64,000 bases of DNA from Shigella phage SP21535. Location: sequence record PQ615101, one strand, 5' to 3'. A model generated the notes under the pieces. It was given only the letters and a program-made list of their open reading frames with translations. It made no database searches and was not told the DNA's origin. The translations under genes were made by a program, and so were the position numbers. Positions 37,215 to 38,271 of this stretch are shown here, one piece after another (position 1 is the stretch's first letter; every line of letters begins with the position of its first letter).

Positions 37215-37456
37215 TGTCTGAACAAACTATTGAACAAAAACTGTCTGCTGAAATCGTAACTCTGAAGTCTCGTATCCTTGATACGCAGGACCAAGCGGCT
37301 CGTCTGATGGAAGAATCCAAAATTCTGCAAGGAACTTTGGCTGAAATTGCTCGTGCAGTAGGTATCACTGGCGATACTATCAAAGTTGAAGAAATCGTCG
37401 AAGCTGTCAAGAATCTTACTGCTGAATCTGCTGATGAAGCAGAAGATGAAGAATAA
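37214..37456 (+). CDS. 57A: tail fibre assembly chaperone gp57A
   Basis: 80 aa coiled-coil; gene order. Confidence 0.8.
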
Positions 37457-37911
37457 TGGAATTTAAAGACTTTTCAACGGGTCTTTATGTAGCAGCTAAG
37501 TTTTCAGAATTAACACTTGATGCGCTGGAAGAACTCCAGCGCTCTTTACGTGTTCCTAATCCAGTTCCTAGAGAAAAAATTCATTCGACCATATGTTATT
37601 CAAGAGTAAATGTTCCGTATGTTCCATCAAGCGGAAGTTTTGAAGTAGCTTCTTCTGGACATTTAGAAGTATGGAAAACACAAGATGGATCGACTCTTGT
37701 ACTTGTGCTAGATTCTGAATATCTGCGCTGTAGACACATGTATGCGCGGGCACTAGGTGCTACACATGATTTTGATGATTACACACCGCATATAACATTG
37801 TCTTATAATGTTGGACCCTTATCATTTAGCGGTGATGTACAAATTCCGGTCGTATTAGATCGTGAATACAAAGAGCCTCTTAAACTCGATTGGGCAGACG
37901 ATTTAAAATAA
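37456..37911 (+). CDS. 57B: 2H phosphoesterase family protein gp57B (Acb1-like)
   Basis: 151 aa; two H-x-T/S motifs (IHSTICY, PHITLSY); gene order. Confidence 0.8.
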
Positions 37912-37923
37912 TTTCACAAAGTT

Positions 37924-37953
37924 GTTTACACGTTGATGAGGTAGTGATACTAT
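37924..37953 (+). promoter_or_regulatory. early promoter (GTTTAC -35, TG-extended -10) within inverted repeat
   Basis: GTTTAC 37924-37929; TGaTACTAT; flanking GATGAG/CTCATC stem. Confidence 0.5.
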
Positions 37954-37983
37954 TATCTCATCAAAATTAATTAGGAAAATAAA

Positions 37984-38271
37984 ATGAAAACTTTCAAAGA
38001 ATTTACTTCTACAACTACCCCGGTTTCTACTATTACCGAAGCTACTCTTACTTCTGAGGTTATTAAAGCAAATAAAGGACGAGAAGGTAAACCAATGATT
38101 AGTCTGGCTGATGGTGAAGAAATCAAAGGTACTGTTTACCTAGGTGATGGGTGGTCTGCTAAAAAGGATGGTGCTACAATCGTTATCTCTCCTGCTGAAG
38201 AAACTGCGTTGTTTAAAGCTAAACACATTTCTGCGGCACATCTCAAAATTATTGCTAAAAATCTTTTGTAA
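37984..38271 (+). CDS. ipI: internal protein I (capsid-targeted, injected)
   Basis: 95 aa; N-terminal capsid targeting sequence ending ...ITE before mature Ala; gene order. Confidence 0.85.
   Translation: MKTFKEFTSTTTPVSTITEATLTSEVIKANKGREGKPMISLADGEEIKGTVYLGDGWSAKKDGATIVISPAEETALFKAKHISAAHLKIIAKNLL

What the first reader, a model, noticed from the sequence alone, without database searches (positions are those of the whole stretch)
37456..38271. Adjacent counter-defence candidates: 2H phosphoesterase (57B) and injected IPI
57B has two H-x-T/S motifs typical of 2H phosphoesterases; the T4 family member is reported to degrade cyclic oligonucleotide defence signals (Acb1). The neighbouring ipI encodes a capsid-targeted protein known to block a type IV restriction system. 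An Acb2-type sponge is reported at the T4 vs.4 position, which by gene order could be ORF 48168-48434, but I see no motif evidence for that.
Basis: partly seen in the sequence, partly recalled or inferred. Interest (0 to 1): 0.45.

Follow-up and report, generated by a model that had tools for sequence, protein, structure and literature searches.

The report
T4-type Acb1, IPI and Acb2 genes
These are the already well-studied phage T4 counter-defence genes 57B/acb1 (an enzyme that destroys the bacterial CBASS alarm nucleotides) and ipI (an injected inhibitor of the GmrSD restriction enzyme), present almost unchanged in a T4-like phage, so the finding is correct but ordinary.

Summary
The window is a T4-like phage (Tequatrovirus), with its + strand equal to the T4 minus strand.

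- **57B / Acb1 (37456-37911):** 151 aa, identical to T4 57B/Acb1 (NP_049750) apart from the first of T4's two start Mets. It hits Pfam Acb1 at 2.6e-60 and the Acb1 crystal structure 7T26 at 4e-62. Both HxT motifs and all published nucleotide-contacting residues are kept.
- **ipI (37984-38271):** 95 aa, 94/95 identical to T4 IPI (V42A). It has the capsid-targeting leader and the I-T-E|A protease site, and the mature part matches PDB 2JUB at 75/76.
- **ORF 48168-48434:** It is Vs.4/Acb2, 85/88 identical to T4, 9e-56 to PDB 7UQ2, with all cGAMP-binding and hexamer residues kept.

All three functions were shown experimentally for the T4 proteins. Nothing here is new.

Side observations:
- A second internal-protein gene (Ip4 type, 46101-46575) is broken by a one-base insertion.
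- T4's ipII, ipIII and denV are absent from their usual place.
- An unannotated late ORF (41057-41515) has an internal-protein-like leader.

The parts
37456..37911 (+). 57B / acb1 coding sequence (151 aa), anti-CBASS 2H phosphoesterase
   Evidence: ORF. Pfam Acb1 2.6e-60. PDB 7T26 4.1e-62, 68% identity. 100% identical to T4 57B over 151 aa. 498 phage records carry a copy at >=99% identity.
37582..37590 (+). First catalytic motif H43-S44-T45 (= T4 H44/T46)
   Evidence: Read directly from the sequence. Aligned with the T4 and FBB1 HxT motif. Residue mapping. Catalytic role from PMC9117128.
37789..37797 (+). Second catalytic motif H112-I113-T114 (= T4 H113/T115)
   Evidence: Same as for the first motif.
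37925..37953 (+). Early-promoter-like site upstream of ipI (TTTACA, 17 nt, TACTAT, preceded by TG). It lies inside a 59-nt direct repeat (37906-37964) whose second copy (38273-38331) precedes the next gene, trna.4.
   Evidence: Consensus scan and repeat family D1, 80% identity with the first 26 nt identical. Conserved in T4. Function as a promoter is inferred, not shown here.
37984..38271 (+). ipI coding sequence (95 aa precursor of internal protein I)
   Evidence: Pfam IPI_T4 6.1e-53. 94/95 identical to T4 IPI, V42A. PHROG 4363 internal virion protein.
37984..38040 (+). Capsid-targeting leader and propeptide (residues 1-19, MKTFKEFTSTTTPVSTITE), removed at I-T-E|A
   Evidence: The solved mature protein (PDB 2JUB, 76 aa) starts exactly at residue A20 of this ORF. 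The Pfam domain covers 20-95. The leader motif MK[ST][YF]x[EQ]F occurs only three times in all six frames of the window, each time at the start of an ip-type ORF.
38041..38268 (+). Mature IPI* (76 aa), the GmrSD inhibitor
   Evidence: 75/76 identical to PDB 2JUB.
48168..48434 (+). vs.4 / acb2 coding sequence (88 aa), cyclic-nucleotide sponge
   Evidence: PDB 7UQ2 Vs.4 9e-56. Pfam Acb2_Tad1_hairpin 1.2e-19. 85/88 identical to T4 Vs.4, with E13D, E14D and G17S. Y8, H11, K23, R79, F82, L29, A66, A73 and A77 are all present.
36851..36858 (+). TATAAATA late-promoter consensus inside gene 1, upstream of 57A-57B-ipI. Possible source of late transcripts.
   Evidence: Pattern search. No terminator-like site lies between it and ipI. 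Function is inferred.
5871..6509 (-). Gene 21 prohead protease, the enzyme expected to cut the IPI leader (context)
   Evidence: Pfam Peptidase_S77 1.5e-111. Scaffold gp22 (5031-5840) and major capsid protein gp23 (3447-5012) lie next to it.

Best explanation
The window is a T4-like phage (Tequatrovirus) carrying T4's known counter-defence genes nearly unchanged.

(1) 57B encodes Acb1, a small metal-independent 2H phosphoesterase. It binds CBASS cyclic di- and trinucleotides that contain at least one adenosine (3'3'-cGAMP, cUA, cAAA). It twists the adenosine so that its 2'-OH attacks the 3'-5' bond over the HxT/HxT tetrad. The ring is linearised through a 2',3'-cyclic phosphate intermediate, so the CBASS effector is never switched on.

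(2) ipI encodes a 95-aa precursor. Its N-terminal leader directs it into the prohead scaffold, and the prohead protease gp21 cuts after I-T-E19. The 76-aa IPI* is packaged (about 360 copies per head in T4) and injected with the DNA. There it blocks the CT596-type GmrSD enzyme, which would otherwise cut glucosyl-hydroxymethylcytosine DNA.

(3) About 10 kb downstream, vs.4 encodes Acb2, a hexameric sponge that sequesters cGAMP. It gives a second, non-enzymatic anti-CBASS layer.

Shown here: sequence identity, motifs, processing site, gene context and presence of the protease. Taken from published T4 experiments: the activities. Inferred: that they operate the same way in this phage, and the promoter assignments.
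For: Identity to the characterised proteins:
- Acb1 is 151/151 identical to T4.
- IPI is 94/95 identical to T4, and 75/76 identical to the solved IPI*.
- Vs.4 is 85/88 identical to T4 and matches PDB 7UQ2 at 9e-56.

Family profiles are far above threshold.

Functional residues:
- In Acb1, all are retained: Y11, H43, T45, W73, F106, H112, T114, E140, W146, which are T4 Y12, H44, T46, W74, F107, H113, T115, E141, W147 (roles from PMC9117128).
- In Vs.4, the binding and hexamer residues are retained (roles from PMC10097602).

Context:
- Gene order 1, 57A, 57B, ipI, trna.4-.2, tRNAs, segB is the same as in T4.
- Nucleotide identity to T4 is 98% over 1.17 kb.
- The gp21 protease, gp22 scaffold and gp23 capsid genes are in the window.

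Published function:
- T4 delta-acb1 shows a >300-fold defect on CBASS hosts, and activity appears about 15 min after infection.
- T4 delta-ip1 is restricted >10^6-fold by GmrSD.
- Ip1 is specific for the CT596-type GmrSD.
- Vs.4 has a Kd of about 30 nM for cGAMP.
Against: No biochemical or plating data exist for this particular phage. IPI carries one substitution (V42A, mature residue 23) whose effect on GmrSD binding is unknown. The same variant occurs in only 3 of 287 phage records with an ipI homologue. Vs.4 carries three substitutions (E13D, E14D, G17S) next to T12, a residue hit in the published T4 mutant screen, although all are conservative. The promoter assignments are only consensus matches, and the scan found about as many as in shuffled sequence (15 against 12.1 +/- 3.9).
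Confidence: 0.95

Rival explanations
1. 57B is an RNA ligase or RNA-repair enzyme of the 2'-5' RNA ligase (LigT) type, as RefSeq and PHROGs label it. On this reading it acts on phage or host RNA rather than on defence signals.
For: RefSeq annotates T4 57B and many orthologues as 'RNA ligase'. PHROG 755 carries the same label. The fold class (2H phosphoesterase) is shared with LigT. The gene lies close to the tRNA cluster.
Against: The Pfam 2_5_RNA_ligase2 match is only E=0.11 and 13 bits against a cut-off of 27, while Acb1 scores 202.7 bits. Direct biochemistry on the identical T4 protein shows cyclic-oligonucleotide cleavage. T4 delta-acb1 grows normally without CBASS and is defective only with it. 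The 'RNA ligase' label looks like an automatic transfer of a superfamily name.
Confidence: 0.03
2. In this phage IPI is only a basic internal head protein that is packaged and injected with the DNA. It would have no effective anti-restriction role, either because V42A alters the inhibitor or because its natural hosts carry GmrSD variants it cannot block.
For: Ip1, Ip2 and Ip3 each block only one GmrSD variant, with no cross-protection. The UTI89 GmrSD homologue is insensitive to IPI*. The exact V42A variant is rare (3 of 287 records).
Against: V to A is a conservative change in a protein that is otherwise 75/76 identical to the characterised inhibitor. The gene, its leader and its cleavage site are intact.
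Confidence: 0.07
3. The adjacency of 57B and ipI marks a co-regulated 'anti-defence island' with a functional link between the two genes.
For: The two genes are adjacent, on the same strand, 72 nt apart, with no terminator between them. Other internal-protein genes sit at the same place in relatives: 'Ip7 protein' and 'internal virion protein' lie next to 57B in Enterobacter and Cronobacter phages.
Against: Acb1 homologues occur in 1470 phage records, but ipI homologues occur in only 287, so the pairing is not obligatory. ipI has its own promoter-like repeat and looks like an exchangeable cassette. The targets (CBASS signals and GmrSD) and the timing (Acb1 is made after infection; IPI* is pre-packaged) are unrelated.
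Confidence: 0.1

Closest known systems
Phage T4 Acb1 (gene 57B, NP_049750; Hobbs et al. 2022, PMC9117128) and Erwinia phage FBB1 Acb1 (PDB 7T26/7T27)
   Same: The protein sequence is identical to T4 Acb1 over all 151 residues and 68% identical to the crystallised FBB1 enzyme. It has the same HxT/HxT tetrad, the same base-stacking residues, the same adenine-reading Glu and the same C-terminal lid Trp. Its position after 57A is also the same.
   Different: It lacks the first of the two tandem ATG codons annotated in T4. A single G-to-A change turns ATGATG into ATAATG and changes the 57A stop from TGA to TAA, so residue numbers are one lower. There are 12 synonymous nucleotide differences within the gene.
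Phage T4 internal protein I / IPI* (PDB 2JUB; Bair, Rifat & Black 2007; Rifat et al. 2008)
   Same: The 95-aa precursor has an identical 19-residue leader with I-T-E|A cleavage and a 76-aa mature protein. The promoter-like upstream sequence and the locus between 57B and trna.4 are the same.
   Different: There is one substitution, V42A (mature position 23). The exact sequence is found, for example, in Escherichia phage FelixPlatter.
Phage T4 Vs.4 / Acb2 (PDB 7UQ2; Jenson et al. 2023, PMC10097602)
   Same: It is 88 aa long and sits after vs.5. All published cGAMP-contact and hexamer-interface residues are kept.
   Different: There are three substitutions near the N-terminus (E13D, E14D, G17S). 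An identical protein exists in Escherichia phage vB_EcoM_SP1.

Membership tests
Acb1 (Pfam PF23474, anti-CBASS 2H phosphoesterase) | Full-length match to the family profile above the curated threshold | tested here: met
   202.7 bits against a cut-off of 27, E=2.6e-60, profile positions 1-144 of 144.
Acb1 (Pfam PF23474, anti-CBASS 2H phosphoesterase) | Two HxT motifs forming the catalytic tetrad (T4 H44, T46, H113, T115) | tested here: met
   H43-S-T45 and H112-I-T114 align with the T4 and FBB1 motifs. The distant Acb1 9Q2G also keeps both.
Acb1 (Pfam PF23474, anti-CBASS 2H phosphoesterase) | Nucleobase-stacking aromatics (Y12, W74, F107, W147) and the adenine-specific E141 | tested here: met
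   Y11, W73, F106, W146 and E140 are present. Their roles come from PMC9117128.
Acb1 (Pfam PF23474, anti-CBASS 2H phosphoesterase) | 2H phosphoesterase fold | tested here: met
   Tested by sequence only: 68% identity across 141 residues of the crystal structure 7T26. No structure prediction was run because it would add nothing.
Acb1 (Pfam PF23474, anti-CBASS 2H phosphoesterase) | [quoted passage not shown] | not testable with these tools
   Shown for the identical T4 protein. Not measured for this phage.
IPI_T4 (Pfam PF11634, injected GmrSD inhibitor) | Match to the family profile above threshold | tested here: met
   177.2 bits against a cut-off of 25, E=6.1e-53, profile positions 1-76 of 76.
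IPI_T4 (Pfam PF11634, injected GmrSD inhibitor) | N-terminal capsid-targeting leader and a prohead-protease site that yields the 76-aa IPI* | tested here: met
   The leader MKTFKEF...ITE|A is identical to T4's. The solved mature protein starts at A20. The gp21 protease and gp22 scaffold genes are present.
IPI_T4 (Pfam PF11634, injected GmrSD inhibitor) | Inhibition of CT596-type GmrSD | not testable with these tools
   Shown for T4 IPI. The effect of V42A is unknown.
Acb2 / Vs.4 (Pfam PF24729 Acb2_Tad1_hairpin) | Profile match and cGAMP-contact residues Y8, H11, K23, R79, F82 | tested here: met
   70.6 bits against a cut-off of 27. 9e-56 to PDB 7UQ2. All five residues are present.
Acb2 / Vs.4 (Pfam PF24729 Acb2_Tad1_hairpin) | Hexamer-interface residues L29, A66, A73, A77 | tested here: met
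   All are present. Their roles come from PMC10097602.
Acb2 / Vs.4 (Pfam PF24729 Acb2_Tad1_hairpin) | Tight binding and sequestration of cGAMP | not testable with these tools
   Shown for T4 Vs.4, Kd about 30 nM.
2'-5' RNA ligase / LigT (Pfam PF13563) | Match above the family threshold | tested here: not met
   13 bits against a cut-off of 27, E=0.11, and only a 43-residue stretch. NCBIfam has no match.

The most novel reading that the evidence does not exclude
The main finding leaves no room for novelty, so the most novel reading concerns this phage's set of injected proteins, which differs from T4's. It keeps IPI (as a rare V42A variant). It lacks ipII and ipIII at their T4 position. Its Ip4-type gene is broken. 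It also carries an unannotated late-promoter-driven ORF (41057-41515) whose N-terminus, MKSYAQFLNE|AS, looks like a capsid-targeting leader with a protease site. That ORF could be an uncharacterised injected inhibitor of another GmrSD-type or other defence system. Homologues are present in about 500 T4-like phages.
Probability: 0.2. Interest if true: 0.4.

Novelty: already known. Interest (0 to 1): 0.08.

Why it matters
It matters little as a discovery, because all three genes are established T4 counter-defence factors and the proteins here are identical or nearly so. It has three practical uses:
- **Annotation.** Most database records still call 57B 'hypothetical protein' or, misleadingly, 'RNA ligase', and vs.4 'hypothetical protein'.
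- **Host-range prediction.** This phage should resist adenosine-containing CBASS signals by two routes, and should resist CT596-type GmrSD. It may be sensitive to the GmrSD variants that T4 counters with Ip2 and Ip3.
- **Counter-counter-defence.** Carrying Acb2 may expose the phage to systems such as Panoptes, which is reported to sense phage counter-defences that deplete cyclic-nucleotide signals (PMC12657218, abstract).

Tried and rejected
- **Is the window T4 itself?** No. It is 98% identical at nucleotide level at this locus. No record in the phage collection exceeds about 96.5% over 14 kb, so it is a mosaic Tequatrovirus.
- **The 'RNA ligase' label for 57B.** Rejected. The Pfam 2'-5' RNA ligase match is below threshold and NCBIfam gives nothing.
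- **A TATAAATA late promoter directly in front of ipI.** None was found. The nearest upstream one is at 36851, inside gene 1.
- **Terminators between 57A, 57B and ipI.** None was found.
- **The original IPI papers** (Bair 2007 PMC1868451, Rifat 2008 PMC2255585, Repoila 1994 PMC395341). None is held in the library. Details about the leader, and about cassette exchange at the ip loci, therefore rest on secondary citations and on my own knowledge.
- **A whole-region script comparison with T4.** It failed because locus L002 was not exported to the script machine. I used the alignment tools instead.
- **Large database searches and structure prediction.** I did not run the large protein-database searches, structure prediction or fold search. 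With 100%, 99% and 97% identity to experimentally characterised, structurally solved proteins they could not change the verdict.

Full report
**What is there.** One runs 37456-37911 (151 aa) and the other 37984-38271 (95 aa). Upstream lie gene 1 (dNMP kinase, 36501-37214) and 57A (37214-37456). Downstream lie three small ORFs, an eight-tRNA cluster and a GIY-YIG homing endonuclease. This is the gene order of phage T4 between genes 1 and segB, read on the T4 minus strand. A megablast of the 1.5 kb around the finding hits 783 phage records, almost all Tequatrovirus and relatives. Direct alignment with T4 NC_000866 gives 98% nucleotide identity over 1.17 kb. The window is not T4 itself, and no record exceeds about 96.5% identity over 14 kb.

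**57B is Acb1.**
- The 151-aa product matches Pfam Acb1 (PF23474) end to end at E=2.6e-60. The generic 2'-5' RNA ligase family scores only 13 bits, below threshold.
- It matches the crystal-structure sequence of Erwinia phage FBB1 Acb1 (PDB 7T26/7T27) at 4.1e-62 with 68% identity.
- It is 151/151 identical to T4 57B. T4 is annotated with one more Met because it has ATGATG. Here a G-to-A change gives ATAATG and also turns the 57A stop from TGA into TAA. T4 residue numbers are therefore one higher.
- Hobbs et al. 2022 (PMC9117128) identified T4 57B as Acb1 by activity-guided fractionation. [quoted passage not shown] - All nine residues are present here as Y11, H43, T45, W73, F106, H112, T114, E140 and W146.
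- T4 delta-acb1 has a >300-fold defect on CBASS hosts only, and activity appears about 15 min after infection.

**ipI is T4 IPI.**
- The 95-aa product matches Pfam IPI_T4 at 6.1e-53 over residues 20-95.
- It is 94/95 identical to T4 IPI, the one difference being V42A.
- The solved mature protein IPI* (PDB 2JUB, 76 aa) aligns from A20 to the C-terminus at 75/76. The first 19 residues, MKTFKEFTSTTTPVSTITE, are therefore the leader removed after I-T-E.
- The prohead protease gene 21 (Pfam Peptidase_S77, 1.5e-111), the scaffold gene 22 and the capsid gene 23 are in the same window.
- IPI* is packaged at about 360 copies per head and co-injected with the DNA. [quoted passage not shown]
- Ip1, Ip2 and Ip3 each inhibit one GmrSD variant without cross-protection (PMC12373910).
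- ipI homologues occur in only 287 phage records, against 1470 for Acb1 and 1233 for Vs.4. That fits ipI being an exchangeable accessory cassette.

**The Acb2 guess.**
- The ORF at 48168-48434 (88 aa) is Vs.4/Acb2. It matches Pfam Acb2_Tad1_hairpin at 1.2e-19 and PDB 7UQ2 'Vs.4' at 9e-56.
- It is 85/88 identical to T4 Vs.4, with E13D, E14D and G17S.
- It lies after vs.6 and vs.5 homologues, as in T4.
- The cGAMP contacts (Y8, H11, K23, R79, F82) and hexamer-interface residues (L29, A66, A73, A77) defined by Jenson et al. 2023 (PMC10097602) are all present.

**Expression (inferred).**
- A 59-nt direct repeat (37906-37964 and 38273-38331) is 80% identical overall, with the first 26 nt identical. 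It places the same promoter-like element (TTTACA, 17 nt, TG-TACTAT) in front of ipI and of the next gene. It is conserved in T4.
- From my own knowledge this resembles the T4 early-promoter consensus. Such repeats were proposed to mediate ip cassette exchange (Repoila et al. 1994, which I could not read here).
- The only TATAAATA late-promoter consensus upstream is at 36851, inside gene 1. No terminator-like site lies between it and ipI. Late read-through of 57A-57B-ipI is therefore plausible, and it fits both IPI packaging and the 15-min onset of Acb1 activity.
- The promoter scan as a whole is not enriched over shuffles, so these remain consensus matches only.

**Rivals.**
- The 'RNA ligase' label in RefSeq and PHROGs is not supported by profile scores or by published biochemistry.
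- A functional link between 57B and ipI is unlikely, given their independent distribution across phages and their unrelated targets and timing.
- V42A might weaken IPI. This cannot be excluded by computation, but the change is conservative.

**Side observations.**
- Between lysozyme e (45529-46023) and the vs.8-like gene (46669-47259), T4 has ipIII, ipII and denV. The window instead has a single Ip4-type internal-protein gene (DUF7412, PHROG 3155).
- That gene is broken. One extra A in an A-run at about 46147-46150, relative to phage IME537, separates the leader peptide (MKTYQEFITEAAINSQNYC, then a stop) from the body.
- An unannotated 152-aa ORF (41057-41515) has an ip-like leader, MKSYAQFLNE|AS. 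A terminator-like hairpin and a TATAAATA at 41010-41017 lie directly upstream.
- That ORF has homologues in 511 phage records, none of those listed being named, and no similarity to T4 e.8 at the same position.
- The leader motif occurs only at these three places in all six frames of the window.

**Verdict.** The genes are already known, so interest is low.

Noticed in passing
window 46101-46575 (+): An Ip4-type internal virion protein gene (Pfam DUF7412, PHROG 3155) is split by a one-base insertion in an A-run (about 46147-46150) relative to phage IME537. The capsid-targeting leader MKTYQEFITEAAINSQNYC ends at a stop (46101-46160), and the body continues in another frame from 46177. It is either a true pseudogene or a homopolymer sequencing error.
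   Followed up: partly
window 46024-46680 (between e, 45529-46023, and the vs.8-like ORF, 46669-47259): T4 has ipIII, ipII and denV here, but this phage has only the broken Ip4-type gene. It therefore appears to lack the Ip2 and Ip3 GmrSD inhibitors, and endonuclease V, at their T4 location. I did not search the rest of the window for them.
   Followed up: partly
window 41057-41515 (+), with TATAAATA at 41010-41017 and a terminator-like hairpin at about 40980-41008: A 152-aa ORF of unknown function (PHROG 2280). Its N-terminus MKSYAQFLNE|AS resembles the internal-protein capsid-targeting leader plus a protease site, and a late-promoter consensus lies directly upstream. Homologues occur in 511 phage records; none of the 40 listed carries a functional name. 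It has no similarity to T4 e.8, which occupies this position in T4. It is a candidate uncharacterised injected protein.
   Followed up: partly
window 37906-37964 and 38273-38331 (+): A 59-nt direct repeat (80% identical, first 26 nt identical) carries an early-promoter-like TTTACA/TG-TACTAT element and brackets ipI like a cassette. It is also present in T4.
   Followed up: partly
window 37453-37458: A single G-to-A difference from T4 changes the 57A stop codon from TGA to TAA. It also removes the first of the two tandem ATG codons annotated for T4 57B, so the Acb1 here is 151 aa rather than 152 aa.
   Followed up: yes
window 39304-39875 and 40586-40662 (+); 39917-40582 (+): There are eight tRNA genes (Gln, Leu, Gly, Pro, Ser, Thr, one with anticodon CAT, and Arg), as in T4. 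The CAT one is called Met by ARAGORN and annotated Ile in T4. A SegB-like GIY-YIG homing endonuclease gene lies between the seventh and eighth tRNA.
   Followed up: no
public annotation of orthologues: 57B/Acb1 is labelled 'RNA ligase' in RefSeq and PHROGs, or 'hypothetical protein'. Vs.4/Acb2 is almost always 'hypothetical protein'. Only one listed record uses 'anti-CBASS protein Acb1'. Annotation lags the literature.
   Followed up: partly
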